Made by a program: the position numbers and the translations under genes. From positions 1,472,001 through 1,536,000 of the forward strand of contig OZ244170.1 in NCBI GenBank assembly GCA_965216565.1: a stretch of DNA of 64,000 nt, read 5' to 3'. The stretch is from Bythopirellula sp. GTDB taxonomy: Bacteria; Planctomycetota; Planctomycetia; Pirellulales; Lacipirellulaceae. Positions 1 through 13,930 of this stretch are shown piece by piece. How positions within the stretch are numbered: the first letter of the stretch is position 1; each line of letters opens with the position of its first letter. Below the pieces are notes generated by a model. The model was not told where the DNA came from, did not search any database, and saw only the letters and a program-made list of their open reading frames with translations.

Positions 1-2131
1 ACCCTTTAGCACTGGCGGCAATTGCTTTGTTAAGTGCTCCGTTCGATCGAAATAGTCGAAAGCAGACGGTTCCAATTACGAAAAGTGAGCTTATCAGGGA
101 TAACCTTCCGAGCGAGTTGATACTTATCTCGTCGTTGCCAATCTCAACACCGACGGCAATCGCCAGTAGCGGTAGCGCCAATAGTTCTAAGGTACGTGCA
201 GCTCGACGAATGGCGGCCAAACCTTTAATGTCCCAGCCAAAGTGGTTTGCACCCAAACCGCCTTGGCGAGAGGCGTGCCTGGCCAGATTCAGCATGGCGT
301 AGGCGGCAGCAAAGAGCATGAGCGCCCAACCAGTGGAAAATGCGAGCGCGCTAGTGCCGCGACTCAATCGCCAGCCCACAAACCCAAAGCAGGTTGGTAT
401 AGGTAGAGCCATAAACATGGTGGCGAGTGATGCCAACACGGTTGGCCGGAACTTGGTAGCAGTTGGCTTCGCGGCTGCTTCTCCTGTTTCTCGCAGAAGC
501 GTGCGGGCACGTGAACGCCCCACCACAAGCGTAGTGGCTAACAGCAGGCCAAATCCCCACCAATGGGCACGTCGTTGAATGTCTCGTGATAGTATCATCC
601 CCAGACTCTTAACTTGTGCTAGGCGGTTAGGAGCGTTACTCCAGAAGTCTTTCGTATGTTGCAGTTCTGGTAGACCAATCGTCGGTGCGCTACGAACCCA
701 GAGTATTTGTTCGGCTATGAAATCAGAGAGTTCTTCAGTTGTTGAAACGACTTCACTCTCGGCGGCATCAAGTTCTTCAATACGGCTCAGGCTGTCACTA
801 GCATTGGCGATCAATTCAGCAAGGATTTCCGTGCGTGCTTCGAAAATCCGACGTAATTCCTTAGCTGCAGCGTCGGACAACTCGATCGACTCATCTGCGA
901 GCTGCTGTTTTGCTTGCTCTACCTGCTCATCACAGTGTAGGCACTCTCGGCGAAGTGATTCCCATTCGTAAACGTCCAATCCTAGTTGCGAAGCTTCGAC
1001 AGGCCGATGACCAAGGCGATCTCGAATTGGTGCGAGAGCCGGAAGCTGATCTTGTTGAGTGCGTAACATCGCCCCAATTGCCGTAGAGTGTTGCCCCGCA
1101 TCCGCACGTTTGGTGACATCGGTCAGACGATTCTTCATCGTTTGTCCTAACTCCTTCGCCTCCGTCAGCCGCGCGGTAAGTTGTTGCAATCGTAACACAA
1201 TTTTCTCGTTTCGATCGGCTAATTGTGCATTAAGAGCTGCAGCAGACTGCACTGCCGGGTGAGCGTTAATTGCAGTCATGCGAGCTGACTGCGCTTGCTT
1301 CTCCGCCTCCTGGCGTTTCGCCTCTGCCACCTGCTCTTTGACCGCTTGATGCTGTGAGACAACAGCTTGCAATTCTCTTTCGGCAGCATCTCTGCGTGCC
1401 AACCAGAGTCGAGAATTGGATTCGTACGTTAGGACTTCTTGTTCAAGCCATTGGTATTCGACCGACAAGTAATCACGGCGAGCCAAGTGATAAAGCTGCT
1501 TTGCTTCCGTTAGTATTGACACGCTCTTTTCGAGAGGTTGTCCGAGTGTGTTTGCCAAGGAATCATACTGCTCTCGATTTTTGGTCAACAGCTCTGGAAG
1601 GACCTTGCGACGTTCGGCCCGACGTTCAATTTCTGCCGTTACTTTCACCACTTTTTCTTTCGCAAGCGAAAGTTGCTGACCTAACGTTGTCAGGTAGTTG
1701 CGAAGTTGGTCGACTGAGGGTACTGCGGGCAGTTGCTGAATATCAACTGCAAGGCCGACGGGCTGCTGCAGCTTCTCAATTTCTGAACTAGAAAGCTCTA
1801 GTTCTTTCTTGAGAGCCTCAGTAGTTGCAGCTAACTTCTCTGCGTCGGCAAGCTTCGTTGCAGTTTTGTCACAAAATTCATTGGCTTCTGCGCGAGTCTC
1901 CTCGGTGCCTTCCTCGGCAATGTCGCAACGCTTCCGTAAGCGCGCTATCGCCTCAGATGAAACTTGATGCAACTCAACTCCAACGACTTCCCCCGAGGTA
2001 GATTCCGCGGCTAGTGCGGTTTGCGCTGCTACGGAATCCGCTGCTTGCACCTCTGCAATTGCTAGCTGACTACTGAGCGATAAAAGCGAGCAAAGGCTGC
2101 ATAATGCCAGTAGGTATCGATTACTTGTCAC
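1..2131 (-). CDS. MscK/MscM-like large mechanosensitive channel (MscS family), 3'-truncated by the window edge
   Basis: Absent from the ORF track because it runs off the edge. Manual translation from GTG 2131 (AAGGAAG upstream) gives a signal peptide (MTSNRYLLALCSLCSLLSLSSQLAIA), a helical region, then LSDFIAEQILWVRSAP in frame near 700, which matches LTNFIDENVLWVRS of the 7626..11117 protein. Only parts were translated. Confidence 0.8.
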   Translation of the reverse strand, partial: MTSNRYLLALCSLCSLLSLSSQLAIAEVQAADSVAAQTALAAESTSGEVVGVELHQVSSEAIARLRKRCDIAEEGTEETRAEANEFCDKTATKLADAEKLAATTEALKKELELSSSEIEKLQQPVGLAVDIQQLPAVPSVDQLRNYLTTLGQQLSLAKEKVVKVTAEIERRAERRKVLPELLTKNREQYDSLANTLGQPLEKSVSILTEAKQLYHLARRDYLSVEYQWLEQEVLTYESNSRLWLARRDAAERELQAVVSQHQAVKEQVAEAKRQEAEKQAQSARMTAINAHPAVQSAAALNAQLADRNEKIVLRLQQLTARLTEAKELGQTMKNRLTDVTKRADAGQHSTAIGAMLRTQQDQLPALAPIRDRLGHRPVEASQLGLDVYEWESLRRECLHCDEQVEQAKQQLADESIELSDAAAKELRRIFEARTEILAELIANASDSLSRIEELDAAESEVVSTTEELSDFIAEQILWVRSAPTIGLPELQHTKDFWSNAPNRLAQVKSLGMILSRDIQRRAHWWGFGLLLATTLVVGRSRARTLLRETGEAAAKPTATKFRPTVLASLATMFMALPIPTCFGFVGWRLSRGTSALAFSTGWALMLFAAAYAMLNLARHASRQGGLGANHFGWDIKGLAAIRRAARTLELLALPLLAIAVGVEIGNDEISINSLGRLSLISSLFVIGTVCFRLFRSNGALNKAIAASAKG

Positions 2132-2295
2132 CAAAAACACCTTCCTTGGGCCGAGTCGCTGAGGAGACCTCGTAACTCTCATCAAATGCTGCAGTACGCT
2201 AGCAGCCAATCACCCTGGTTCCATCCAGGGCAACATGGGAAGATACGGTGAACAGGCCAGGAGGGCTAGAGCAGCTTTGTTCCAGCAGGCTAGCT

Positions 2296-2760
2296 TTAGT
2301 TGCCACCTTCTCCGCCGATATCTTGGGAGAACGCGTCCTGGATAAGCTGACTCTCTTTGTGTAGGTGCGTATCTAGCGACTTCAAAAATGCTGCAAGCTC
2401 GGCACAGAGTTGTTCAAATTCTGCAAGTTTGTCAGGAAGCGTTCTTTCCAACTGGGTAACGATTTGGTGTAGCTTTTCGCGTAGCGTAGCGTGCTCCTTC
2501 TGCAATGCCTCAATCTTACTTGCCAAATGGGGAGCCACTTCTACGGCCATGTCCATATAGCCATCGTGTTCCTCAATCGCGAACATGCGGTCAATTTGCT
2601 GCTGGAACCAACTCGTCAAGAACCGCAGTCCTGAGAGCTTGCGAGTGAACAGCGTTCCTTCAATCGGCCAATCAATCATCGACAATAGTGCTTTACGCGT
2701 GTGTTCTAACGCCTTGTTTTCAATGCGGCACTGCTTCAAAATTCCTTTGTCGTCAACCAT
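2296..2760 (-). CDS. Hemerythrin-like four-helix domain protein
   Basis: Motifs EH..., FAIEEHDGYM, KEHATL, THLHKES; paralog of 23349..23828. Confidence 0.65.
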   Translation of the reverse strand: MVDDKGILKQCRIENKALEHTRKALLSMIDWPIEGTLFTRKLSGLRFLTSWFQQQIDRMFAIEEHDGYMDMAVEVAPHLASKIEALQKEHATLREKLHQIVTQLERTLPDKLAEFEQLCAELAAFLKSLDTHLHKESQLIQDAFSQDIGGEGGN

Positions 2761-2845
2761 TAGTAAAACTCCTAATCAAAAATTCTCGTGTGATATTAGA
2801 TTTCGCTTCTGTATGAAAAAGCAAGCACCTCCAGATTCTGTTAAA

Positions 2846-3298
2846 TCACGCTGCCGGTGGCGTGGCGAGTGGAGCAAGAGCTTTGCGACCGACGATTTCG
2901 CCTCGACATACAATTGCCCCGCAGCAACACATAAACGAACGAAACAACACATCTTCTGTCTGTTCGTAGTCCATTGTCAGCAAACTACCAGCGGCGATAT
3001 TTCGCTCCGCGATAAACAGCCACGAACTGGTATCAAACCAAGAATTAGGATCACAACTATGTAGCACTTTGCCAGCAAAGTAAGGGTCGTCCAAGTGTGT
3101 GTCGGGTCCAATTTGCAACGTGGATTGGGTAATCTCATTAGTAATGACTCCATTCATGCGGAAGAGAATCTCGCCGCGATGAAAGGGGCGTAGAACGCGA
3201 ACGCCTTGTCCACGCTGAGGGTCTACGTCGATCACTTCAAAATCTTCGATTTGCGGTTCCAATGGAACCGGCTTGAGATGCGAAGGGTAAATTCTCAT
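2846..3298 (-). CDS. SET-domain protein with post-SET Cys cluster
   Basis: GQGV...F.RGEIL, LHSCDPN (canonical NHSCxPN), LLTMDY (canonical ELTxDY), post-SET FMCCCGAIVCRG. Confidence 0.85.
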   Translation of the reverse strand: MRIYPSHLKPVPLEPQIEDFEVIDVDPQRGQGVRVLRPFHRGEILFRMNGVITNEITQSTLQIGPDTHLDDPYFAGKVLHSCDPNSWFDTSSWLFIAERNIAAGSLLTMDYEQTEDVLFRSFMCCCGAIVCRGEIVGRKALAPLATPPAA

Positions 3299-3687
3299 TT
3301 CCTATAAATCACCTCCAATTCTATGACTTTGGGTCCGAAGAAAAGCTTCGTCACCCGTTCGACGGTTTCAGTATTAAACGGCTTGCAGCTAAAGACATCC
3401 AAATACATGTCGCGATGCGCGTCGTTTGTATGCAGCATGATGGCACTTGTTTGGATGAGCTGAACGCCAGAGATACCTGTTTCGATGCCTTCGCCAAAAC
3501 GAGCCACAAACGGCAACCCAAAGCTAACCATGTCGATTTCATCCACCATCTTCTGTAAGAAATCAAATAGGACCTCTATCGAAAGCAGTTGATCGTTGCA
3601 GCTACGGGCAGTGACCAGAGCATGTTGCCCATAGTGAGGTTGTCCGTTGTGCTGGATGCGTCGATATTCGGGTAGCGCAGAGGGCAT
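3295..3687 (-). CDS. S-adenosylmethionine decarboxylase family (pyruvoyl-dependent) proenzyme
   Basis: YGQH, GISGVQLIQTSAIMLHT, YLDVFSCKPF; ATG at 3687 after GGAG; ATGA overlap with the SET gene. Confidence 0.8.
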   Translation of the reverse strand: MPSALPEYRRIQHNGQPHYGQHALVTARSCNDQLLSIEVLFDFLQKMVDEIDMVSFGLPFVARFGEGIETGISGVQLIQTSAIMLHTNDAHRDMYLDVFSCKPFNTETVERVTKLFFGPKVIELEVIYRK

Positions 3688-3709
3688 AACATTCTCCAAG
3701 CGAGAAAAA

Positions 3710-3823
3710 CGATTCGAGGAAGAATCGAGAGAGAACCTGAGAGCAGTAACTGCAAGGAAGCAGCCCAGATTGTCAGAGAGAGACCGAACGTTCCGATCAG
3801 CAATCGGAGGCGGTCTTTGTCAG
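3710..3823 (-). promoter_or_regulatory. Tandem structured 5' leader upstream of the AdoMetDC-like gene (candidate cis-regulatory RNA)
   Basis: Two units, each CUGACAA + closing stem + inner hairpin + CUCU; G-U pairs favour the minus (mRNA) strand. Confidence 0.45.
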
Positions 3824-3978
3824 TTCAACTATGATTATATTATGTCGTAACGCAAAGTATTCAAGATGCTTTTTACAGAGATTATCCTTAAGGTAGCTGC
3901 ATGCTATCATGAAATTAGAATGGTTGTAGCAGGACGACACGCTAACCAATAAATTGTCCCTAATTACAAAATTGTTAT

Positions 3979-5160
3979 TTATTCAGGTCGTATCGTTACA
4001 TCATTTTGCAGAGAGTCCGTGATTTGATGTCTAGACGCATTGCTCTGGGAACTGCTCGCTACATCACCATTCGCTGCGGGGCCCGATAGCCATCCACGTC
4101 GCCAGAAGAAACCAATCAAACCCGTAGCCACCGCAACCATCAACGTAAGCGCTAACGGGTAACCAAGCGCCCAGTCCAATTCCGGCATCATTTTGAAGTT
4201 CATTCCGTAGACGCCGGCAATAAAGCTGAGTGGAATGAATATGGTGGCGATAATAGTCAACACTTTCATGACTTCATTCATGCGATTGCTAACCGCTGAA
4301 AGGTAAAACTCGCGTAGGTTGCCGCACATCTCGCGGTAGGTGTCGAGCGAGTCTAATATTTGCACGACGTGGTCGTAGCAATCTCGAAAATAAAGTTGTG
4401 TCTCTTCAGAAACTAGTGAGTGCGAATCACGCATCAGCATCACAAGTTCGTCCCGCAGTGGCCGTATCGCCCGTCGTAACATCATCAGGTCACCACGGAT
4501 TTCGTGAATGTGCTCCATCAGTTGAGGATTGCACTCCGACAAGATGGTTGCATCGAGGTGTTCGAGGCGTTCACCATACTCGTCTACAATTGGAAAATAG
4601 AAATCAACAACGGCGTCGAGTAGGGCGTATACAAGGTAGTCGGAGCCTGAGGTTCGAATGCGACCACGCCCCTTGCGTAGACGCTCTCGCACGGGATCAA
4701 GGCAGTCTCCTTGTCGCTCCTGAAAGGTCAGTACGAAGTTCTTGCCGACGAACATGCTAATTTGCTCCGTCTCCATGATGTCGTTCCACGACATCATTCG
4801 GGCGACGATGAAAAGATGGTCGCCATACTCCTCGACCTTCGCACGTTGATGAACGTTCACTACATCCTCCAAGGCCAGAGTGTGTAGGTCGAATATCTCA
4901 CCGAGCTTCTCAACTTTTCTTGCATCGCCTAATCCAACTACGTCAACCCAAGTGACACCTGAAGAGGCAACGTAATGCCGTAGCTGCTCGAGTTCGTGGA
5001 CTTCCTCTTCCTTGATTATGGCCCGATCGTAGTGCATGATGCGCACCACGGGCTGCGGAGCACCGGGGTGGACTACCACTGAACCTGGAGAACTTCCTGG
5101 AGTCGTCATTCGCTGAACACGGACACTTCGCCGATGTCTGCGTTTACGTTTTTTTACCAT
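3979..5160 (-). CDS. corA: Magnesium/cobalt transporter CorA
   Basis: LHTLALEDV, MNEVMKVLT, YGMNF signature, two C-terminal TM helices. Confidence 0.93.
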   Translation of the reverse strand: MVKKRKRRHRRSVRVQRMTTPGSSPGSVVVHPGAPQPVVRIMHYDRAIIKEEEVHELEQLRHYVASSGVTWVDVVGLGDARKVEKLGEIFDLHTLALEDVVNVHQRAKVEEYGDHLFIVARMMSWNDIMETEQISMFVGKNFVLTFQERQGDCLDPVRERLRKGRGRIRTSGSDYLVYALLDAVVDFYFPIVDEYGERLEHLDATILSECNPQLMEHIHEIRGDLMMLRRAIRPLRDELVMLMRDSHSLVSEETQLYFRDCYDHVVQILDSLDTYREMCGNLREFYLSAVSNRMNEVMKVLTIIATIFIPLSFIAGVYGMNFKMMPELDWALGYPLALTLMVAVATGLIGFFWRRGWLSGPAANGDVASSSQSNASRHQITDSLQNDVTIRPE

Positions 5161-5439: not shown

Positions 5440-6483
5440 TTACAGCGTACACATGTCGACGTTATCGAAGTTACGCCCATAGTAGTGCATGTATTCGACC
5501 TTCTTTTCTATAGCTTCGATCACCAGGGTCGAAAAGTTGACCTTCTCGAACTGCTGGGCGCTACCTAACCCACCAGGGCTAAATACGTTGATTTCCATTA
5601 ACTTGTTGCCGACGATGTCGAGACCAACTAGGAACATGCCATCTTGTACGAGCTTGGGGCGGACAATCTCTGCAATTTGCAGGTGTGTTGCGGTGATTTC
5701 CGCAGCCGCTTTCGAGCCCCCTGCATGAACGTTGCTACGCATGTCGCCGCCACTCCGCACGCGACGGAAGGCGGCATATTTTTTGCCGATTCGTAGGGGG
5801 CGGCCGTTCATGACAAACAGTCGCATGTCGCCTTCTTCGGCTGCAGGTAAATACTCTTGAGCAATTACGAACCCATCCCGGCTGACCGCGTCGATCATCT
5901 GATTCAAGTTGGGAATATCTGCCTGGCGAATCAGAAACACGCTAGCACCTCCAGAGCCTTGAAGCGGTTTGACCACGATGGTTCCTAGCTCTTGTGCAAA
6001 ATGTTTGATTTCATCACGATCGCGAGTGATTAATGTTTGAGGACGCACGGTTTCTGGAAACAATTGAAAGTACATCTTGCTAGATGCTTTAGCTAAGCCG
6101 TTTGGGTCACTGAGGATGATCACGCCATGCCGCATGGCGACACGGGCGAATTCTGTTGCGGCAGTGCTGGCCCAGGGACGACTGAGATAGTCATCGGAGG
6201 GCACGTTACGTAGAACTAGGACGTCCAATTCATCCGCCGTGATTCGGCGTTTGACTGCCTTTTTGCTTTGCAAATCTGCAGTAAAACTGTCGGAGCTACC
6301 GTACTTTTCTTTGGGAACTGATGTTGCTCGCGCGCGAACCATGTCGTCGGGATCGTAAGCCAAGTCTCCAACACCCATCACCCAAACTTCATGGCCGCGA
6401 TTCACTGCCGCCTGCCCGAGACGCATCGTCGTGAATTTCTTTTCCTCGGTTTGAACGTCGTTGACGATGAATCCTATTCGCAT
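5440..6483 (-). CDS. Glutathione synthetase (GshB)-like ATP-grasp ligase, copy 2 (347 aa)
   Basis: VVKPLQGSGG, QEYLP, GDMRL, RSNVHAGG, GLDIVG, EINVFSPGG; start refined to ATG 6483 after AAGGA. Confidence 0.85.
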   Translation of the reverse strand: MRIGFIVNDVQTEEKKFTTMRLGQAAVNRGHEVWVMGVGDLAYDPDDMVRARATSVPKEKYGSSDSFTADLQSKKAVKRRITADELDVLVLRNVPSDDYLSRPWASTAATEFARVAMRHGVIILSDPNGLAKASSKMYFQLFPETVRPQTLITRDRDEIKHFAQELGTIVVKPLQGSGGASVFLIRQADIPNLNQMIDAVSRDGFVIAQEYLPAAEEGDMRLFVMNGRPLRIGKKYAAFRRVRSGGDMRSNVHAGGSKAAAEITATHLQIAEIVRPKLVQDGMFLVGLDIVGNKLMEINVFSPGGLGSAQQFEKVNFSTLVIEAIEKKVEYMHYYGRNFDNVDMCTL

Positions 6484-6537
6484 GATGTTTTCCTTTATCT
6501 CTAATACCATTTAATCAAGTGATGCGTGCGATAATGG

Positions 6538-7581
6538 CTACAGAGTACACATGTCGACGTTGTCAAAGTTGCGGCCATAGAACTCCATGTAGCCAGCCTT
6601 CCGTTCCAGAGCACCGATCACATATTTGTTGAAGTTGATTTTGGTGAATTTTTGAGCGCTCCCGAGCCCACCAGGACTGAAGACGTTGATCTCCATGAGC
6701 TTGTCTCCCACGATATCCAGACCGACGAGAAACATGCCGTCCTGCACCAATTTCGGCCGTACTATTTCGGCGATTCTGAGATCTTTTTCGGTCACTTCAG
6801 CCGCAGCAAGTTTGCCGCCCGCATGAATGTTGCTACGCATGTCCCCCCCCATGCGAACTCTACGGAATGCGGCATACTTTCCTTTTACTTGGAGAGGGCG
6901 GCCGTTCATGACAAACAACCGCATGTCACCCTCTTCAGCGGCGGGTAGGTATTCCTGGCAGATCACATAGCCATCGCGACTCACAGCGTCGATCATCTGG
7001 TTCAGGTTGGGTATGTCCGACTCTTGTATCAGAAAAACCCCCGTCCCCCCCGAACCTTGGAGAGGTTTCAGGACGCAGCGTCCCTCCGACTTAGCAAAAT
7101 CTCGAATCTCTTCACGATCGCGAGTAATCAACGTTCTCGGACGCACTTCTTCAGGAAACAATTGGAAGTACATCTTCGTCGAGGCTTTTGCCAGACCGTT
7201 GGGGTCATTAACTACGATCACGCCATTGCGCATCGCCACTCGTCCAAATTCAGCGGCTGCAGTTGCAGCCCATGGCCGTTTGAGATAATCGTCTGATGGC
7301 ACGTTGCGGAGCATCAAAACATCGAGTTCGTCGACCGTGACTCGCTTTTTTACACTCTTGGGGCCTTGCAGGTCTCGAAGAAAAGTCTCTTGCGACTTGT
7401 ATTTTGTCTGCGAGACAGTACGTGCTCTCGCTCGTACGAGTTCGTCCGGATCGTAGGCGATGTCACCTACGCCAAAGACGTAGGCCTCGTGCCCTTGGTT
7501 GACCGCTTCGCAGGCGAGCCGCGTCGTGGTGAATCCAGCTTCTTCAGTGGCAATATCGTTGACGATAAATCCTATTTTCAT
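6538..7581 (-). CDS. Glutathione synthetase (GshB)-like ATP-grasp ligase, copy 1 (347 aa)
   Basis: Same ATP-grasp motifs; start refined to ATG 7581 (MKIGFIVND) after AAGGA. Confidence 0.85.
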   Translation of the reverse strand: MKIGFIVNDIATEEAGFTTTRLACEAVNQGHEAYVFGVGDIAYDPDELVRARARTVSQTKYKSQETFLRDLQGPKSVKKRVTVDELDVLMLRNVPSDDYLKRPWAATAAAEFGRVAMRNGVIVVNDPNGLAKASTKMYFQLFPEEVRPRTLITRDREEIRDFAKSEGRCVLKPLQGSGGTGVFLIQESDIPNLNQMIDAVSRDGYVICQEYLPAAEEGDMRLFVMNGRPLQVKGKYAAFRRVRMGGDMRSNIHAGGKLAAAEVTEKDLRIAEIVRPKLVQDGMFLVGLDIVGDKLMEINVFSPGGLGSAQKFTKINFNKYVIGALERKAGYMEFYGRNFDNVDMCTL

Positions 7582-7625
7582 CCAAGCGTTCCTTTGACTG
7601 AGTTTTTCGTATGAGTGATTCTGCG

Positions 7626-10600
7626 TTAGTTCGATGGAGCTGTAGTTTCTCGTCCGTCGGCATTTGTCTGCTGAGGCTGGAACCAAAACTCACGTGAGGC
7701 ACTATTTGCGGCATGAATATGCAAATCCCGTTGTGGGAAAGCGATGGTAATGCCCGCGGCAGCAAACTCGCGTGCAATTGCCGCATTGAGTTCGTGCAGC
7801 CCCTTGAGTCGATCTCCGATGCGTGCGTGATAGACACGCAGAGAAAAAATCAGCGAGCTGTCGCCAAATTGCTGCAAGAGGGCAACTGGCTTGGGTGAAT
7901 TAAGAACTCGCGGATTTTCACTCGCAACTTTAAGTAGCAAGTCACGAACCTGATCAGGGTCGGAGCCATACGCGACTCCAACCTCAATCACACGCCGGTT
8001 GGTCTTGTTCTGCAGAGTCCAGTTCAGCAAGCGACCTGTGGCGAATTCCTTGTTCGGCACCACCAGATCCTTGCGATCCCAGTCGGTAATTGTCGTCGCC
8101 CGCATGCGAATCGATTGCACAACGCCAGTCGTATCACCAATCGTAATCACATCTCCGACGCGCATTGGACGCTCAAAGAGAATGATCAAGCCAGAAATGA
8201 AATTGGCAAAAATTTCCTGCAAGCCGAAACCTAAACCGAGCGACAGAGCGGCGGCCATCCATTGCACTTTGCCCCAACCGATTCCTAAGCACCCGGCTGC
8301 GAAGATGGCAGCAGCAATCCAGAGCGTATAGCGAGCAATGGTCGTGATCGAATTCCGTAGCGAACTATCGAGAGCTAATTGGTCGAGCACCGGCAGCTCG
8401 AACAATCCATCCAGATAACGCGAAGCCATTACAGTGCTGATCACCACAAACATCGCCAGCAACAGGTCACCCAATGTCACAGGTACTAAGGTGGGAACTC
8501 TCACATCAGGCGCGGGCGATTCAGTTCCAAGCGGTGCAGAGGGTTGGCTAGTTATAACTTCTGTTTCCCACAGTGTCGTATTGCTGACGGCATGGAGCGC
8601 AGGAAAGACGTCGCTCCAAATCCACCAGCCTCCCAGCAGCAGCACTAGCACCAGTAGCGAGGTCACTAGAGACTGTATCTTGTCCTCTGGTTTATCCAAC
8701 TGAACAAACCAACCATCTCCCGTGTCAGGTAGCGGAAAAGTTCCCTCGCTGCTCTCCTTTTCACGATTCGACAACGCAGTGGCAGCTCGTTGACGAGCAA
8801 CAGTTTGAATAGCTCGTCGGCGAGCGATCAAACGACTACCATGTAGCAACAACGACCCGACGACGAACAGGCAGGCCATCAGCAGAAATGTTGAGCGTAC
8901 TTCCTGCCCCAAACGTTCCGCCGAGTAGGTGTACCCCACGATCGCAAGAACGCCGAGCGTTAGGTGTGCCCCCACTCCGACGAGGTAGAGAGGCCAACGC
9001 AATCGATGTAGCAGCGTCTTTTCGCTTGGCTTGGCCGCACGATAGAGTATGCCCGAGTTCGGCCTCAACAATTGCTCGCTAAAGAGTGCGACTACCAAGA
9101 CATTCACGACGTAACAAAGTCTGCCCAGTGAGTCCTGCAACCGCACATCGTCCTGGGCATTCAGTGTCGTCATGATAAGAATAAGTGGAAGAACGACGAC
9201 CGCTAACGGAAACAGCGCTCTCCGCATAGCTGCGATACCCGGGGCAGACCAGCCAAGATGTCGGCGGGCAAAGCCTTTACGTCTGCAGAGCCGAATGAGC
9301 ACTGCCAGAGGTAATAAGCATATCGCGACGTTGATCAGACCAATCCCGACTGCTCGTTCATATCCCTCAGAATTTCCAGCGTTGACTAATCGCTGACCTG
9401 CGAAGGCTAAAAACAGCGGCAATGGCACGGCACACAGAGCGACTCGCAGTAGATCACGTAGAATTCGCCAATATCTCGATGGCCTCTGTGCAGACGATTG
9501 AGGCAAACTATGACGAATCGTCATTTGCCAGCCTAGTGTGCGTGCAGAAAGCAACGATATAGCAACCAAACCAAAAGGCAAGGGGTGCTTCGCATAGTCA
9601 GCAGAGATCGTATTCCAAGTTTGTCGGAGAAATCCACCTTGAAAGAAATCTCGTATTCCGTCAAAGGAGGCAGCAACAGAGCTTGACGACATGCTTTCGG
9701 TGCTGCGTACCCAAAGAACGTTTTCGTCAATGAAGTTGGTCAGGCTGCTGATGTCCTGAGCAAGTTGGCGTTGGGCTTCATCAAGGGCTAGTAATTGCTC
9801 AAGATAGACTTTGTAATCCTCTAGGAGCAAATCAACGTAACGTCGCTCCGCGTTTAACAAACGCTCCCAAGTTTTACGAGGATTCTCGCTCGCCTGCTTT
9901 TCGTCTGGCAACTTTCCCTGCGTAATTAGCCGGTTCATCTCATTCTCGACATTGGCTAGGTCAGAGCGTCGATCCTGGAGTTCGAGCAGGGCCAGTTGCG
10001 CCGTTTTCAGTGTTTGCTGACGGAGGTCAATTTCACGCTCATGCTGGTCGATGCGTGGAAGCTCAGACTTTTGCTTACGCATAAGCAAGCCGATGGTCCC
10101 TGTAAGTCCAACTGCCTCGACTTTGCGGCGAATCCTACCTTGTTGTTGATTGAGCTGGGTCGCTGTTGAATTGATCGCTGCCAGTGCATCGTTCGTAGTG
10201 TCAATCTGCTGACGTAATTCTTGGCGACGCTCCACCAATGCCAGATTAGTGCTCGCAAGGTCTGCAAACTGTGGTAAACCGGTGTTTCTATTAGTTTCTT
10301 CTTTGGCCTCAATCAGATGCAGGGCAACTTCGGTTGTTCGTTTGCGATTCAACTCACCCTGTAGCGTCTTGGCGATTTTGTGCAATCGGGCAACGCGGTT
10401 TGCCGCTACGTCTCGCTGCAATGGCAACAAGTCGATCGTTGCCTGATAGGCCTTTAGTTCGATGGCACCCACATCAATTGCCGACTGAGTGGCTCGAATG
10501 CTAGCCTCCAATTGAACTCGTTTTGCAGCCGCCAATTCAGGTGGATCGTTGGTCTTGTCTATTAGCTTGAGGGTTTGTTCGTCCTGCTGTAGCTTCTCAC

Positions 10601-11117
10601 GCAAACTAATGCGTTGCTGAGGAATCTCCTTGCGCCTAGTCGCGCGGTATTTTGGTTCTTTATCAAGGCGTCGCAGGACTTTCTTTGCTTCCGAGAGTTC
10701 GGCTTCCGCTTCAATCAGCTTTTCTTGCAGAATAGAGATAGACACTTCAGAGCCAACTACAGGTAGAGCCGCTTGTGCCAGCTGGCTGAGTTCGTACCTA
10801 GTGCGCCCGACATCTTCTGGGGCAGTTCGCTGCGATGATGCATACTGCTCTGACAAAACAGCTAGCTTGTCTGCCTGCCGCAGATCAGCAATTGCCAATT
10901 CGTAAAGCGTCAGAATCTGCTTTTTTGTCTCTTCAGGTAGAGCTGAGGTAGCTTTTGTAGCTTCTATCTGCGACTGAAGTTTCTCAACAGAGATCGTGTC
11001 TGCCAGCAGAGTTTGCGATGAGCAAAGGCCAATTGCCAAAAACACGGAAGTGGCAAAGCTCAATAATGAGAAGATTGTAGAATACTGGAACGATCTGTTT
11101 TGAAAGATGCTCTTCAT
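7626..11117 (-). CDS. MscK/MscM-like mechanosensitive channel
   Basis: Signal peptide, long coiled-coil, many TM helices, C-terminal MscS core (LGLGFGLQEIFANFISG, VPNKEF, VGVAYGSD, IAFPQRDLH). Confidence 0.92.
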   Translation of the reverse strand: MKSIFQNRSFQYSTIFSLLSFATSVFLAIGLCSSQTLLADTISVEKLQSQIEATKATSALPEETKKQILTLYELAIADLRQADKLAVLSEQYASSQRTAPEDVGRTRYELSQLAQAALPVVGSEVSISILQEKLIEAEAELSEAKKVLRRLDKEPKYRATRRKEIPQQRISLREKLQQDEQTLKLIDKTNDPPELAAAKRVQLEASIRATQSAIDVGAIELKAYQATIDLLPLQRDVAANRVARLHKIAKTLQGELNRKRTTEVALHLIEAKEETNRNTGLPQFADLASTNLALVERRQELRQQIDTTNDALAAINSTATQLNQQQGRIRRKVEAVGLTGTIGLLMRKQKSELPRIDQHEREIDLRQQTLKTAQLALLELQDRRSDLANVENEMNRLITQGKLPDEKQASENPRKTWERLLNAERRYVDLLLEDYKVYLEQLLALDEAQRQLAQDISSLTNFIDENVLWVRSTESMSSSSVAASFDGIRDFFQGGFLRQTWNTISADYAKHPLPFGLVAISLLSARTLGWQMTIRHSLPQSSAQRPSRYWRILRDLLRVALCAVPLPLFLAFAGQRLVNAGNSEGYERAVGIGLINVAICLLPLAVLIRLCRRKGFARRHLGWSAPGIAAMRRALFPLAVVVLPLILIMTTLNAQDDVRLQDSLGRLCYVVNVLVVALFSEQLLRPNSGILYRAAKPSEKTLLHRLRWPLYLVGVGAHLTLGVLAIVGYTYSAERLGQEVRSTFLLMACLFVVGSLLLHGSRLIARRRAIQTVARQRAATALSNREKESSEGTFPLPDTGDGWFVQLDKPEDKIQSLVTSLLVLVLLLGGWWIWSDVFPALHAVSNTTLWETEVITSQPSAPLGTESPAPDVRVPTLVPVTLGDLLLAMFVVISTVMASRYLDGLFELPVLDQLALDSSLRNSITTIARYTLWIAAAIFAAGCLGIGWGKVQWMAAALSLGLGFGLQEIFANFISGLIILFERPMRVGDVITIGDTTGVVQSIRMRATTITDWDRKDLVVPNKEFATGRLLNWTLQNKTNRRVIEVGVAYGSDPDQVRDLLLKVASENPRVLNSPKPVALLQQFGDSSLIFSLRVYHARIGDRLKGLHELNAAIAREFAAAGITIAFPQRDLHIHAANSASREFWFQPQQTNADGRETTAPSN

Positions 11118-11121
11118 CGGA

Positions 11122-13050
11122 TTACCTCACTTCCTTGCGAGATGCCAATTCGGCCAACGAACAAGAGCTTTCCCGCAACACATTGAGGCGTTTCACGGAG
11201 TCACTGGTGAGTAAATGCCTAGGCACAAGCGGTGGAGCATGCAGCACCTTGCGATATTGCAGTTCTCTGACGATTGGCAAATGCTCGTGGGCAATCTTGC
11301 CCACAAACAGCACATTGATGTCTCCATTCTGCTGAAGGTGCTGCAAGACGGTTTGCAAACCTCGCAAATAGACGGCGTCCTTGGTTAGGCCTCCTCCACG
11401 GTAGACGCGCATCACGATGTTGTAAGCTCTGCGTTTCGTGAAGCCGAATTTATTGACGAGTGCACGAAAGGCTTCTACAAAAGTCGCGTGTTCAGTCCTT
11501 AGTCGTACCGCGACAACGCGGCCAGCGAGTTGACGTAAACGAGCATCGCTCAGTCCGCCCACCAAGTACTCGGACAGTACAGCAATGCCTTCCTGAAGTT
11601 CTTCGTAACCCGATAAACCAGCATGCAGTAGCTGAAACGGCTGTGCCTGAGCGTTATAGTACGTCAGTACATGCGTACCCACTTCGTGGGCTAAGAGGGC
11701 TTGGACGCGTGACTGAGATATATCAAGATCCGAGTTGATCAGTAGCGTCCCCCGAGAGACCATCACGCCACTAACTTCTTCGGTCACTTCAGCCCGGCCT
11801 GCAAACTCGGGCCAAGTATTGTGATAGTGACGGAATTCATCGCGTGCCAGTGCTGCAAACTCTTCTGCAGTTACTGAGCCTTTTTTTCTTTCAGAGGCAT
11901 CCCTAGCCACTAAGGAAAGAAGACTCAGTGCCTCACCGTAGAGGTCGTCCTTGACGCCGCCAAATAGCTGCAAGCTCTGGTACAAGAACCTCGGTGTGTC
12001 GCGGTCTTGTAGCATTGTCAGCTGTAGTTCTAGCTCGGCTTGTTTTTCATAAAAGAGTCGCTGTAGTGCAGGATCCTCTACACGCTCGATTGGAATCTTG
12101 AACAGCTCGCGTTTGAGAGCAATGGGGTCCACCGTTTGTGGTCGATAGTGAAATTCGGGGGCTTGCTCAAACTTACTCCGGTGGAATTCATGCCAAGCCT
12201 GCACCGTGTTGACCGGAGTCAGCTGCAGTAGGTAATCGAATTGGTCACTAATTCCCGCCAGACGACGATCAGCGTTCCAGACGGATTTGACAACTGCTTT
12301 GCGACCAAGTGCGTGGAAGTGGGGTGGGCGGTGTGATGTACAGGTACGGGCAAATTCATAAAAAGCTTGGCGCAAGGCCAAACTCACGCTCCGTCTTAAG
12401 GAACGAGCCAATAGGGGATAGTCTTCTTCAGAGCCCGCTGCACGATATACGGGAGGTACTGTCAGCCCCAGGAAGGAGCAATGGAGTTCGCTTGCCCTTT
12501 TTATCGACAACAGCGGCGCAAATTGCGTTGGCCAGGTCTTGCCGTCACGTTGTACCTCGACCTTTACCCCTTGTTTCAGCACCTTGATACGGCGCAAACG
12601 CTTGGCGAGTGCTTCCACTGCTCGGCTGATGGATGCTTGTGAGGATGCATGAATGGCGAATTTCGGTAACACGTCGGGTACTGCCGGATCATTCGCATCC
12701 CCTCCCTCGGGAGCCGCCCATACTTCGACGATTAGCAGTGCACCGAACTCTCTCGCAAGCGCTTCTGTAACACAGTCAACAACAAGAGATATTTCCTTTG
12801 GCGACGCTTCTGCCTCTGTGACGATAAGGTAGGATGCTTCGGCTTTGACGAGGTGCTCAGTCCCCGAATCGGAAGCATCGAGCGGCTGACGATAGATGCA
12901 CAGAAATGGTAACTGCCGATCAATGTGCAGGCGCCCAATTCCGGGCAGCGTACGTCTTACTCGTTGATTCTGCGCAAGGCGTTGAGAGACCACATCGAGG
13001 ATGGATCTAAGGAGTTTTGATCTCTTGATGGGTTCCTTGCTGATGGGCAA
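11122..13050 (-). CDS. QEGLA-motif (DUF1704, MATCAP-like) zinc metallopeptidase
   Basis: AHEVGTH (HExxxH), LQEGIA, RVYRGGGLTKDAVYLRG. Confidence 0.85.
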   Translation of the reverse strand: MPISKEPIKRSKLLRSILDVVSQRLAQNQRVRRTLPGIGRLHIDRQLPFLCIYRQPLDASDSGTEHLVKAEASYLIVTEAEASPKEISLVVDCVTEALAREFGALLIVEVWAAPEGGDANDPAVPDVLPKFAIHASSQASISRAVEALAKRLRRIKVLKQGVKVEVQRDGKTWPTQFAPLLSIKRASELHCSFLGLTVPPVYRAAGSEEDYPLLARSLRRSVSLALRQAFYEFARTCTSHRPPHFHALGRKAVVKSVWNADRRLAGISDQFDYLLQLTPVNTVQAWHEFHRSKFEQAPEFHYRPQTVDPIALKRELFKIPIERVEDPALQRLFYEKQAELELQLTMLQDRDTPRFLYQSLQLFGGVKDDLYGEALSLLSLVARDASERKKGSVTAEEFAALARDEFRHYHNTWPEFAGRAEVTEEVSGVMVSRGTLLINSDLDISQSRVQALLAHEVGTHVLTYYNAQAQPFQLLHAGLSGYEELQEGIAVLSEYLVGGLSDARLRQLAGRVVAVRLRTEHATFVEAFRALVNKFGFTKRRAYNIVMRVYRGGGLTKDAVYLRGLQTVLQHLQQNGDINVLFVGKIAHEHLPIVRELQYRKVLHAPPLVPRHLLTSDSVKRLNVLRESSCSLAELASRKEVR

Positions 13051-13108
13051 AACGATTCCTTTTGTAATGTAGTAAATCAGCAGCCTCTCTCATCGCATTT
13101 TCACGCCC

Positions 13109-13930
13109 CTAGTGAGCAATGAGTTGAAGCTTGTTTACCTCTTCTAAAATCCCAGGTACCGTCGACGCTAAAGCCTTCTGTACTGCTTTCAATAAATGTC
13201 GTTCGGGTTTGCCGCTCCATTCGCACATAAAGAACTTTTTGAATTCAATTGAAATCACACACGCTGCCTCTGGAAAACACTGGTGTGTCCATTCGGCATG
13301 GTGACCACCCATGAATTTTACATTTTCGCGCACATCAAGTCGCCCAGTTGGGAAATCATAGTTGGATAGTTCATACATGAAGCGATAGAGTAATGGACGA
13401 AACCGTGGCTCTGATCGCATCGTGCCCGTACCAATGTTGACTTGTGGGTTCTCAGCCGGATCTGCGAGTGGCCCATTGGGACCGTTCCGACGATGGTTGT
13501 ACGTATGCAGGTCGAAGACAACAAAGGTTCCATGCTCCTCGGCTAACTCCTGGTAGAGCATACCGAGCGCCTCGTAAAACCGATCGTACTGCTTAAGGGA
13601 ACGCTGCGCGATTTCTTCTGGAAGCTCTTCTTTCCAAATTTGTAATCCCCACGCATCTTCTGGTTTTCGATAGACGGCTCGTTCACGAGGACGATTGAGA
13701 TCGACCTCAAACCGAGAGCGCAAGCCAACCACACGTGTTGGCGCGACTTCCGTCCAATCGCCCGTGTAGGGATCTTCTTCACGCCGTCGATCCTCTTTGC
13801 TGATCGCCATCTGCTCATGCACTTCGCTACGTACCTCGTGGCCATGGTGAATAGCGGTCGCAACGATTGGCCCTGCTCCACGATGAAGCTCCCAAATTTG
13901 ATCGGTCACCTGCGTTCTCTGCGTATGCAA
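13109..13930 (-). CDS. N-formylglutamate amidohydrolase family protein
   Basis: AIHHGH, EEDPYT, SRFEVDLNR, FDLHTY. Confidence 0.88.
   Translation of the reverse strand: MHTQRTQVTDQIWELHRGAGPIVATAIHHGHEVRSEVHEQMAISKEDRRREEDPYTGDWTEVAPTRVVGLRSRFEVDLNRPRERAVYRKPEDAWGLQIWKEELPEEIAQRSLKQYDRFYEALGMLYQELAEEHGTFVVFDLHTYNHRRNGPNGPLADPAENPQVNIGTGTMRSEPRFRPLLYRFMYELSNYDFPTGRLDVRENVKFMGGHHAEWTHQCFPEAACVISIEFKKFFMCEWSGKPERHLLKAVQKALASTVPGILEEVNKLQLIAH

What the first reader, a model, noticed from the sequence alone, without database searches (positions are those of the whole stretch)
2846..3687. Coupled AdoMetDC-like and SET-domain genes with an altered cofactor motif: candidate dcSAM-using modification system
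Seen: an AdoMetDC-family gene overlaps (ATGA) a SET-domain gene, and no spermidine synthase occurs in the 64 kb. The SET protein keeps the catalytic-region Tyr (LLTMDY) and the post-SET Cys cluster, but NHSC reads LHSC. Known: AdoMetDC makes decarboxylated SAM, usually consumed by SpeE aminopropyltransferase, and the NHS Asn of SET domains contacts the amino-acid end of SAM. Inference: this SET fold may use dcSAM (aminopropyl transfer, or methyl transfer from dcSAM) on a Lys or small amine. Alternatively the decarboxylase makes an amine from Arg/Orn/Lys that the SET enzyme methylates.
Basis: partly seen in the sequence, partly recalled or inferred. Interest (0 to 1): 0.85.

Follow-up and report, generated by a model that had tools for sequence, protein, structure and literature searches.

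The report
Methionine methylase plus sulfonium decarboxylase pair
Two overlapping genes most likely methylate methionine and then remove its carboxyl group, using a decarboxylase type not yet linked to that step, which could be an overlooked bacterial route toward the climate-relevant sulfur compound DMSP.

Summary
On the minus strand a 130-aa AdoMetDC-family gene (3298..3687) overlaps by ATGA a 150-aa SET-domain gene (2846..3298). The SET protein reads LHSC where SET proteins usually read NHSC.

The dcSAM reading does not hold. The SET protein is a close relative of BurB (PDB 9l4t/9l4v: E 7e-33, 48% identity, TM 0.88). BurB is a SET enzyme that S-methylates free L-methionine with ordinary SAM, and it also carries LHSC.

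The decarboxylase keeps the three residues needed for pyruvoyl self-processing and catalysis. It lacks the marks of a true AdoMetDC and sits next to a clade that looks like SpeDC ornithine decarboxylases.

The pair is strongly conserved:
- In 51 of 55 informative metagenome loci, SET lies directly downstream of the decarboxylase.
- The pair occurs in Planctomycetota, Spirochaetota and Chloroflexota genomes.
- Fused SET-decarboxylase proteins exist.
- In Gammaproteobacteria the same SET type is followed by, or fused to, an unrelated PLP decarboxylase.

Best reading (about 0.55): Met -> S-methylmethionine -> DMSP-amine, with a pyruvoyl enzyme in place of the usual decarboxylase. I found no paper on this. 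This scan reached the same reading before on other DNA (e1-1321779). What happens to the amine afterwards is unknown, and nothing has been tested biochemically.

The parts
3295..3687 (-). AdoMetDC-family (class 1b, pyruvoyl-type) decarboxylase gene. It encodes 130 aa from the ATG at 3687, with stop TGA at 3295..3297. Proposed S-methylmethionine decarboxylase.
   Evidence: ORF. (PF02675, 53.3 bits). (AF2 model, pLDDT 93.9). (Foldseek top hits are T. maritima AdoMetDC 1vr7/1tlu, TMq 0.76-0.77). (family motif GISGVQLI-x-TSAI-xx-HTND-xx-RD-x-YLDVFSCK).
3445..3447 (-). Codon of Ser81, the predicted self-cleavage and pyruvoyl-forming serine (site T80|S81).
   Evidence: It aligns with S63 of T. maritima AdoMetDC. 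H86 aligns with H68 and C101 with C83. All three are invariant in 19 of 19 aligned family members. The role of S63/H68/C83 is taken from PMC10407285, section 7.
3295..3298 (-). ATGA overlap: the decarboxylase stop codon overlaps the SET start codon, consistent with translational coupling.
   Evidence: In related loci the distance from the decarboxylase match to the SET match is -1 to 190 bp.
2846..3298 (-). BurB-type SET-domain methyltransferase gene (150 aa; stop at 2846..2848). Proposed L-methionine S-methyltransferase that makes S-methylmethionine.
   Evidence: PF00856. (PDB 9l4t BurB, E 6.9e-33, 116.8 bits). (AF2 model, pLDDT 93.9). (9l4v, TMq 0.88, 48% identity; the next best hits are histone methyltransferases at TMq 0.66 and 22%).
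3053..3064 (-). The LHSC motif (L79-H80-S81-C82), the variant of NHSC that BurB also carries.
   Evidence: H80 and C82 are present in 62 of 62 aligned proteins. Position 79 is Leu in 53 of 62, and is Asn only in the two distant outgroup proteins.
2906..2968 (-). Tyr111 (equivalent to BurB Tyr124) through the post-SET cysteines C124, C126 and C131.
   Evidence: Y111, C124 and C126 are present in 62 of 62 and C131 in 61 of 62. In BurB, Y124A loses almost all activity (PMC12542666, section 4).

Best explanation
The pair is a two-enzyme module that makes a sulfonium amine.

Step 1 (inferred from homology to a characterised enzyme): the SET protein, a BurB-type methyltransferase, moves the methyl group of ordinary SAM onto the sulfur of free L-methionine. 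The product is S-methylmethionine (SMM).

Step 2 (inferred from gene coupling, fusions and displacement by an unrelated enzyme): the AdoMetDC-family protein cleaves itself between T80 and S81 to form a pyruvoyl group. It then decarboxylates SMM to 3-dimethylsulfoniopropylamine (DMSP-amine). This is the step that BurI carries out in Burkholderia.

The ATGA overlap couples the translation of the two genes. The later fate of the amine is open: other enzymes may oxidise it to DMSP, or it may be used as it is.
For: 1. The SET protein is BurB-like.
- Sequence match to BurB: E 6.9e-33.
- Structure match: 48% identity, TMq 0.88, rmsd 1.9 A to the BurB-SMM-SAM crystal structure.
- BurB residues R42, T73, H93, Y124 and R133 are matched by R29, T60, H80, Y111 and R120 (my mapping).
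- BurB methylates Met but not MTHB or MMPA (PMC12542666, section 4).
- A burB knockout lacks SMM, and a burI knockout accumulates it (PMC7496086, passages).

2. The decarboxylase looks catalytically competent but is not a true AdoMetDC.
- S81, H86 and C101 are invariant, and the fold match is confident.
- TIGR03330 scores 29.7 bits against a cut-off of 75.65.
- E62, W70, P71 and E72 of the T. maritima enzyme are replaced by T, N, D and A.

3. The pairing is conserved.
- The decarboxylase lies directly upstream of SET in Botrimarina, a Brevinematales MAG, a Planctomycetales MAG and an Anaerolineae MAG. The flanking genes differ between them.
- In 51 of 55 informative metagenome loci whose decarboxylase is at least 47% identical, SET lies directly downstream.

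4. Fused proteins exist. P0255 and P0311 are single proteins of SET plus this decarboxylase type.

5. An unrelated decarboxylase takes the same place.
- In 3 of the 4 gammaproteobacterial loci examined, a BurB-like SET is directly followed by a PLP fold-III decarboxylase, and none of the 4 holds an AdoMetDC-like gene.
- P0264, P0282, P0322 and P0289 are fusions of SET with a PLP decarboxylase.
- In a quick SET tree, the proteins closest to BurB and the PLP-linked proteins nest among the decarboxylase-linked ones, next to the window's clade.

6. Chemistry and context.
- The nearest relatives of the decarboxylase are SpeDC-like, and I take those to be ornithine decarboxylases. SMM carries its positive charge about where ornithine carries its side-chain amine, so a switch of substrate is plausible. 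This last point is inference.
- In Botrimarina, metH follows the pair directly.
Against: - No enzyme assay exists for any member of this decarboxylase clade.
- BurB holds methionine through main-chain atoms only (PMC12542666, section 4), so the substrate cannot be read from side chains. BurB H72, S88 and H138 are S59, A75 and C125 here.
- The decarboxylase shares three of the four residues that I infer to be the SpeDC (ornithine decarboxylase) diagnostics (Q76, T80, Y95).
- The window's genome shows no other recognisable ornithine or arginine decarboxylase. Its only PF02784 protein is LysA, and there is no PF01276 or PF01862 match (genome 94% complete). This protein could therefore be the cell's ornithine decarboxylase.
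- No aminotransferase, amine oxidase or aldehyde dehydrogenase is conserved next to the pair. Context therefore does not show that DMSP is the end product.
- No SAM or Met riboswitch was found in the window or in 14 related loci.
- metH adjacency was seen in 1 locus only.
- Four informative loci carry this decarboxylase type without SET (L042, L059, L075, L079).
- Two pair-bearing records are named activated sludge, so the module is not specifically marine.
- The 51-of-55 count includes near-duplicate contigs, and the loci were found with the decarboxylase as query.
Confidence: 0.55

Rival explanations
1. The decarboxylase is an ornithine or arginine decarboxylase of the SpeDC/SpeDA kind. The SET enzyme N-methylates the basic amino acid or the resulting diamine, for example giving N-methylputrescine.
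For: - The nearest relatives carry the QLIETS...HF...YLDVFSCK pattern. I take this to be the SpeDC signature described in PMC10407285, section 7.
- The window protein shares Q, T and Y of that pattern.
- The genome has no other recognisable ODC or ADC, no DS/SpeY and no canonical SpeE. This is the anomaly that PMC10407285 used to find neofunctionalised SpeD homologues.
- SET enzymes classically methylate amines.
Against: - The clade replaces HF-x-E/N with an invariant HTND and adds an invariant R92-D93 and a conserved N-terminal Y-rich segment. It is therefore not a plain SpeDC.
- A housekeeping ODC would have no reason to be welded to a BurB-type enzyme in 51 of 55 loci and in fusions.
- The only characterised member of this SET family S-methylates Met, at 48% identity to the window protein.
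- Botrimarina and the Planctomycetales MAG have a second PF02784 decarboxylase as well as the pair.
Confidence: 0.15
2. The same two enzymes act in the opposite order. The pyruvoyl enzyme decarboxylates methionine to 3-methylthiopropylamine, and the SET enzyme then S-methylates that amine. The product is again DMSP-amine.
For: - The decarboxylase gene comes first in the operon.
- A decarboxylation-first route to DMSP is described for one dinoflagellate (PMC12542666, section 3).
- In what I read, BurB was not reported as tested on 3-methylthiopropylamine.
Against: - BurB binds both the amino and the carboxyl group of Met and makes SMM in vitro.
- A burI knockout accumulates SMM, which shows methylation first in the characterised system (PMC7496086, passages; PMC12542666, section 4).
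- The relatives of the decarboxylase act on substrates with a cationic side chain, which methionine lacks.
Confidence: 0.07
3. The decarboxylase is a true AdoMetDC that makes dcSAM, and the SET fold uses dcSAM, for aminopropyl or methyl transfer, because Asn is replaced by Leu in NHSC.
For: - It is the only AdoMet_dc homologue in the genome.
- In canonical SET domains the Asn binds the amino nitrogen of SAM (PMC1282579, passage on 1O9S Asn296).
- A fused MFS/spermidine-synthase-like protein exists elsewhere in the genome.
Against: - BurB has the same LHSC and binds and uses ordinary SAM (PMC12542666, section 4).
- The Asn is absent in 60 of 62 family members, including those paired with PLP decarboxylases.
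- TIGR03330 scores far below its cut-off.
- The Pro that is completely conserved in bona fide AdoMetDCs is missing.
- The protein groups with SpeDC-like proteins, not with ESH...HT-x-P proteins.
Confidence: 0.04
4. The module follows the same logic, methylate then decarboxylate an amino acid, but acts on a different substrate from Met. An example would be another thioether, seleno or basic amino acid, giving an unknown onium amine.
For: - The BurB-like family is large and varied. It has 264 clusters at E <= 1e-10. Members include proteins with 6-8 SET repeats, fusions with Ddl-like ATP-grasp domains, and an NRPS with a C-terminal SET domain.
- Substrate contacts in BurB are through the main chain only.
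Against: At 48% identity and nested beside the closest BurB relatives, conservation of the substrate is the simpler assumption.
Confidence: 0.1

Closest known systems
BurB (Burkholderia thailandensis), a SET-domain L-methionine S-methyltransferase of the DMSP methylation pathway (PDB 9l4t, 9l4v)
   Same: - Same fold and size.
- 48% identity and TMq 0.88.
- Same LHSC motif, catalytic-site Tyr and post-SET Cys cluster.
- Acts together with a decarboxylase.
   Different: - BurB lies in a polyketide/NRPS virulence-factor cluster with BurI, BurD and BurE (PMC7496086). The window gene is in a bare two-gene module.
- BurB H72, S88 and H138 are S59, A75 and C125 here.
- Reviews describe BurB as confined to Burkholderia or to a narrow range of taxa (PMC9135737 and PMC13360808, passages).
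BurI / SMMDC, the SMM decarboxylases of B. thailandensis and Streptomyces mobaraensis
   Same: They carry out the reaction proposed here (SMM to DMSP-amine) and partner a Met S-methyltransferase.
   Different: - I recall these as PLP enzymes, but I could not verify this in the texts I read; the Liao and Seebeck 2019 paper is not held.
- The decarboxylases I found beside BurB-like SET genes in Gammaproteobacteria are PLP fold-III proteins. These are unrelated to the pyruvoyl AdoMetDC fold of the window protein.
SpeDC / SpeDA, AdoMetDC homologues neofunctionalised to L-ornithine or L-arginine decarboxylases (PMC10407285)
   Same: - Class 1b AdoMetDC fold.
- The S63, H68 and C83 equivalents are kept.
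- The conserved Pro of AdoMetDC is lost.
- SpeDC-like proteins are the nearest relatives in my quick tree.
   Different: - Invariant HTND in place of HF-x-(E/N), plus R92-D93 and a conserved N-terminal segment.
- Tied to a SET methyltransferase rather than to polyamine genes.
Bona fide class 1b AdoMetDC (SpeD/SpeH; T. maritima 1tlu/1vr7)
   Same: Same fold (TMq 0.76-0.77) and same pyruvoyl chemistry.
   Different: - 18% identity.
- Below the equivalog cut-off.
- No canonical SpeE partner in the genome.

Membership tests
BurB-type SET-domain methionine S-methyltransferase | SET fold with close sequence and structural similarity to BurB | tested here: met
   PF00856 scores 24.9 bits against a cut-off of 22.4. 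BurB match E 6.9e-33. TMq 0.88 and 48% identity to 9l4v.
BurB-type SET-domain methionine S-methyltransferase | Active-site Tyr (BurB Y124), SAM-adenine His (H93) and the Zn-binding Cys set | tested here: met
   Y111, H80, C82, C124 and C126 are present in 62 of 62 aligned proteins, and C131 in 61 of 62.
BurB-type SET-domain methionine S-methyltransferase | S-methylation of free L-Met with SAM | not testable with these tools
   Needs an enzyme assay. Met contacts in BurB are through the main chain only (PMC12542666, section 4).
Class 1b AdoMetDC/SpeD superfamily (pyruvoyl enzymes) | Fold, plus the self-processing Ser and the catalytic His and Cys (T. maritima S63, H68, C83) | tested here: met
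   PF02675 scores 53.3 bits. S81, H86 and C101 align with these residues and are invariant. Foldseek hits 1vr7/1tlu.
Bona fide S-adenosylmethionine decarboxylase | Equivalog-level score, and the conserved Pro after HTW | tested here: not met
   TIGR03330 scores 29.7 bits against a cut-off of 75.65. The motif reads HTND instead of HTWPE.
Bona fide S-adenosylmethionine decarboxylase | A partner aminopropyltransferase (SpeE) in the genome | tested here: inconclusive
   The only match is a 990-aa fused MFS/spermidine-synthase/TPR protein. It scores 123.6 bits on NF037959 and is far below the speE equivalog cut-offs.
SpeDC (AdoMetDC-derived L-ornithine decarboxylase) | Four diagnostic residues: Gln, Thr, Phe, Tyr (PMC10407285, section 7; figure not seen, so the positions are my inference from HF-type sequences) | tested here: inconclusive
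   Q76, T80 and Y95 are present. The inferred Phe position is Thr87, and this is invariant across the clade.
Bacterial DMSP methylation pathway (four enzymes) | DMSP-amine aminotransferase or oxidase and DMSP-aldehyde dehydrogenase linked to the first two genes | tested here: not met
   None lies next to the pair in the window, in the 13 long metagenome loci or in the genome loci L004, L006 and L007. I did not search for them genome-wide.

The most novel reading that the evidence does not exclude
The two genes are a self-sufficient route to DMSP-amine, built around a previously unrecognised pyruvoyl S-methylmethionine decarboxylase. The route is spread across Planctomycetota, Chloroflexota, Spirochaetota and many uncultured bacteria.

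The amine could be used in either of two ways:
- It could be kept as the end product. It is a doubly charged sulfonium analogue of a short diamine, and could stand in for polyamines in a genome where I found no ornithine or arginine decarboxylase.
- It could be oxidised by housekeeping enzymes to DMSP. These lineages would then be unrecognised sources of DMSP and DMS that current marker-gene surveys (dsyB, mmtN, burB of Burkholderia) miss.
Probability: 0.22. Interest if true: 0.8.

Novelty: new variant of a known kind. Interest (0 to 1): 0.62.

Why it matters
Surveys of DMSP production rely on a few marker genes. Recent reviews treat BurB as a Burkholderia oddity (PMC13360808 and PMC9135737, passages).

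If this module works as proposed, three things follow:
- BurB-type enzymes are widespread. The library holds 264 clusters at E <= 1e-10.
- The second pathway step has been filled at least twice by unrelated decarboxylases.
- The AdoMetDC fold has acquired a third new substrate, after arginine and ornithine.

The reading also gives a clean, cheap test: two small soluble proteins and one LC-MS assay.

Tried and rejected
- RNA evidence: no RNA holder is listed for window 2300-4000. I did not lay reads.
- Riboswitches: no Rfam match at E <= 0.1 in window 2200-4100. In 14 related loci only TPP riboswitches and tRNAs were found, all far from the pair.
- Promoter and terminator scan: counts were at the level of shuffled sequence.
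- Phylum sample: among 401 Planctomycetota genomes, only the window's own genome had a close homologue of the decarboxylase. The other 11 genomes had matches of 30-39% identity, of ESH or HF type. I did not search that sample for SET.
- Search for longer proteins with the decarboxylase as query: it gave 1 protein, a methyltransferase-decarboxylase fusion, and no SET fusion. The SET fusions came from the representative search.
- Pseudomonas-type locus L113 (SET 63% identical to P0111): no decarboxylase was recognised among its neighbours.
- Conserved third gene:
  - A GNAT plus CN-hydrolase gene lies near the pair in 5 loci, all of one clade and in mixed orientation.
  - An NNMT-like methyltransferase lies nearby in 2 loci.
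  - A class I methyltransferase lies nearby in 2 loci.
  - I judged all three to be lineage-specific.
- Trees: the careful tree of the decarboxylase did not finish, so a quick tree was used. Of 97 rows, 86 remained after duplicates were dropped; the 105-aa length filter removed none. The SET tree is also a quick tree of 64 rows, and in it the distant outgroups are pulled inside.
- Literature:
  - 'S-methylmethionine decarboxylase' + pyruvoyl gave 0 papers.
  - SET domain + AdoMetDC + S-methylmethionine gave 0 papers.
  - mobaraensis + DMSP + decarboxylase + pyridoxal gave 0 papers.
  - burB + Planctomycetota gave only unrelated word matches among the 10 of 37 papers listed.
  - Liao and Seebeck 2019 is not held.
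  - I did not open the supplements of the BurB and SpeD papers. They may hold alignments that bear on the diagnostic residues.
- Complex prediction was not run, because no claim of binding is made.
Full report
**What is in the window.** On the minus strand, a 130-aa ORF (ATG at 3687, stop at 3295..3297) overlaps by ATGA a 150-aa ORF (3298 down to the stop at 2846..2848).
- The first ORF matches Pfam AdoMet_dc at 53.3 bits (cut-off 25). The second matches SET at 24.9 bits (cut-off 22.4).
- Each is the only member of its family in the 5.2-Mb, single-contig genome.
- The only Spermine_synth match lies about 179 kb outside the window.
- The SET protein reads L79-H80-S81-C82. It keeps Y111 in LLTMDY and the cysteines C124, C126 and C131.

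**What the SET protein is.** A search of solved structures gives one outstanding hit, BurB (9l4t/9l4v), at E 6.9e-33. Histone methyltransferases come next, at E around 1e-3.
- An AlphaFold model (pLDDT 93.9) superposes on the BurB-SMM-SAM crystal structure with TMq 0.88, rmsd 1.9 A and 48% identity. ASH1L and similar proteins reach TMq 0.66 and 22%.
- BurB is a 172-aa SET enzyme of Burkholderia thailandensis. With SAM as donor it S-methylates free L-methionine to S-methylmethionine (SMM). It does not act on MTHB or MMPA (PMC12542666, sections 3 and 4 read; PMC7496086, passages).
- The alignment shows that BurB itself reads L92-H93-S94-C95.
- In my alignment of 62 BurB-like proteins the canonical Asn is absent in 60. 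It is Leu in 53, and Asn appears only in two distant outgroup proteins.
- In classical SET domains that Asn does bind the amino nitrogen of SAM (PMC1282579, passage). Even so, BurB binds ordinary SAM without it.

The step from LHSC to dcSAM use therefore fails.

**What the decarboxylase is.** Its model (pLDDT 93.9) matches the T. maritima and Aquifex class 1b AdoMetDC structures at TMq 0.74-0.77.
- The three residues reported as essential for self-processing and catalysis in T. maritima are S63, H68 and C83 (PMC10407285, section 7). They align with S81, H86 and C101, and these are invariant in 19 of 19 family members. An active pyruvoyl enzyme that cleaves at T80|S81 is expected.
- It is not a typical AdoMetDC. 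The NCBIfam equivalog scores 29.7 bits against a cut-off of 75.65. ESH becomes TSA and HTWPE becomes HTND-A, which loses the Pro that PMC10407285 reports as completely conserved in bona fide enzymes.
- Other homologues from Planctomycetota genomes fall into two types. Two (L014, L020) have the ESH...HT(F/Y)P pattern. Nine (L013, L015-L019, L022-L024) have QLIETS...HF...YLDVFSCK, and one (L021) fits neither.
- Nineteen metagenome loci, L086-L104, have the HF pattern (16 printed or classed); the 9 whose neighbours I scanned look phage-like.
- I take the HF pattern to be the Gln/Thr/Phe/Tyr signature of SpeDC ornithine decarboxylases. I did not see the figure that marks those positions.
- In a quick tree the HF proteins form one clade with 99% support. 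The window's HTND proteins are their nearest neighbours, and the ESH proteins lie outside.

**Is the pairing real?** Yes.
- Searching genomes with the SET protein gave 8 loci. In 4 of them the decarboxylase lies directly upstream, and the flanking genes are unrelated: Botrimarina, a Brevinematales MAG, a Planctomycetales MAG and an Anaerolineae MAG. The other 4 lack it; 2 of those are only partial SET matches.
- Searching metagenomes with the decarboxylase alignment gave 481 relatives, of which the best 80 loci were kept.
  - 58 loci have a decarboxylase at least 47% identical to the window's.
  - 55 of those have at least 300 bp of sequence downstream.
  - 51 of the 55 have SET directly downstream, at a distance of -1 to 190 bp.
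  - The four misses are L042, L059, L075 and L079.
  - Some contigs are near-duplicates, and the sample was seeded with the decarboxylase. The count therefore measures how often this decarboxylase has a SET neighbour, not the reverse.
- Of the 22 loci below 47% identity, only L083 has SET, and there it lies upstream.

**Fusions and displacement by an unrelated enzyme.** A search of 1.84 billion representative proteins found 264 BurB-like clusters at E <= 1e-10. I scanned 25 of the longer hits against Pfam.
- Two (P0255, P0311) are SET plus AdoMet_dc fusions. Their decarboxylase halves carry the HTND or HSND motif.
- Four (P0264, P0282, P0322, P0289) are fusions of SET with a PLP fold-III decarboxylase, in either order.
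- In a sample of 400 gammaproteobacterial genomes, 7 had a BurB-like SET. I examined the 4 best. In 3 of them SET is directly followed by a 455-484-aa PLP fold-III decarboxylase. None of the 4 loci holds an AdoMetDC-like gene.
- Bit scores against BurB are 178.8 for the Pseudomonas-type protein P0111, 139.3 for a PLP-linked SET, 116.8 for the window protein and 102.8 for the Brevinematales SET.
- In a quick SET tree, P0111 and the PLP-linked proteins form a clade with 99% support. That clade sits beside the window's Planctomycete clade and inside the wider decarboxylase-linked group.

One methyltransferase family is thus tied again and again to either of two unrelated amino-acid decarboxylases. 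This is what is expected if the two decarboxylases perform the same step.

**Mechanism proposed.** In Burkholderia the genetics give the order Met -> SMM (BurB) -> DMSP-amine (BurI) -> aldehyde (BurD) -> DMSP (BurE) (PMC7496086, passages). The simplest reading of the window is the first two steps of that pathway, with a pyruvoyl enzyme in BurI's place.
- Shown here: homology, conserved catalytic residues, coupling, fusions and displacement.
- Inferred: the substrates.
- SMM carries a positive charge about where ornithine carries its side-chain amine. A relative of ornithine decarboxylases is therefore a plausible starting point.

**What argues against this reading.**
- No downstream enzyme is conserved beside the pair.
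- metH follows the pair in only one locus.
- No SAM or Met riboswitch was found.
- The window's genome shows no other ornithine or arginine decarboxylase. Its sole PF02784 protein is LysA (355 bits on TIGR01048). There is no PF01276, PF01862 or PF01916 match, and the genome is 94% complete. An ornithine-decarboxylase role therefore cannot be excluded.
- The pair-bearing genomes G401-G404 each have this single AdoMet_dc homologue. Two of them have a second PF02784 protein.

**Novelty.** My word searches found no paper that links a pyruvoyl or AdoMetDC-type enzyme to SMM, or a SET gene to an AdoMetDC gene. Reviews place BurB only in Burkholderia or in a narrow range of taxa.

**Verdict.** The likely function is a two-gene module that makes SMM and then DMSP-amine. 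This is a new variant of a known pathway, worth a simple biochemical test.

Noticed in passing
P0235 (392 aa); L046:5177-5932 and L071:21-626: An NNMT/PNMT/TEMT-family methyltransferase (amine N- or thioether S-methyltransferases) is fused to the N-terminus of an HTND-type decarboxylase in P0235. In L046 and L071 a gene of the same family lies directly upstream of the decarboxylase; SET follows it in L046 and, cut off by the contig end, in L071. This hints at a further methylation step in some lineages.
   Followed up: partly
L034:6886-8439, L041:6972-8618, L039, L035, L048: A fused GNAT acetyltransferase plus carbon-nitrogen hydrolase gene (about 520-610 aa) lies next to the pair in 5 loci of one clade. 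It is on the same strand in 3 loci and on the opposite strand in 2. Its function is unknown, and it could modify the amine product.
   Followed up: partly
L075:5926-6303 and L079:954-1331: An HTND-type decarboxylase (about 50% identical to the window's) occurs without SET. It sits inside a cluster of glycosyltransferase, TupA-like ATP-grasp and MORN-repeat genes. In the tree it is nested among SET-linked relatives, so the enzyme may serve another pathway there.
   Followed up: partly
L004:4599-8438 (Botrimarina): The B12-dependent methionine synthase gene metH follows the decarboxylase-SET pair directly on the same strand. This link to methionine metabolism was seen in this locus only.
   Followed up: partly
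P0285, P0326, P0341, P0369, P0236-P0238: BurB-like SET domains also occur in other architectures: at the C-terminus of a 4765-aa NRPS, as a pair of SET domains behind a D-Ala-D-Ala-ligase-like ATP-grasp domain, and in proteins of 1400 aa and more with 6-8 matched SET stretches.
   Followed up: no
window 2..2209, 5440..7686, 7626..11117, 11122..13930 (all minus strand): The pair sits between two MscK-like mechanosensitive channel genes. Nearby are a tandem pair of glutathione-synthetase-like ATP-grasp genes, a MATCAP/DUF1704 gene and an N-formylglutamate amidohydrolase gene. The setting looks osmotic-stress related, but it is not conserved in other loci.
   Followed up: partly
whole genome G000 (L003, L105): I found no ornithine or arginine decarboxylase (PF02784 other than LysA, PF01276, PF01862) and no deoxyhypusine/homospermidine synthase. 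The only spermidine-synthase-like protein is a 990-aa fusion with MFS and TPR domains. How this organism obtains polyamines is unclear.
   Followed up: partly
window 2296..2760 (minus strand): A 154-aa hemerythrin-like gene lies 85 bp downstream of SET on the same strand. It may belong to the same transcript. It is not found beside the pair in the other loci examined.
   Followed up: no
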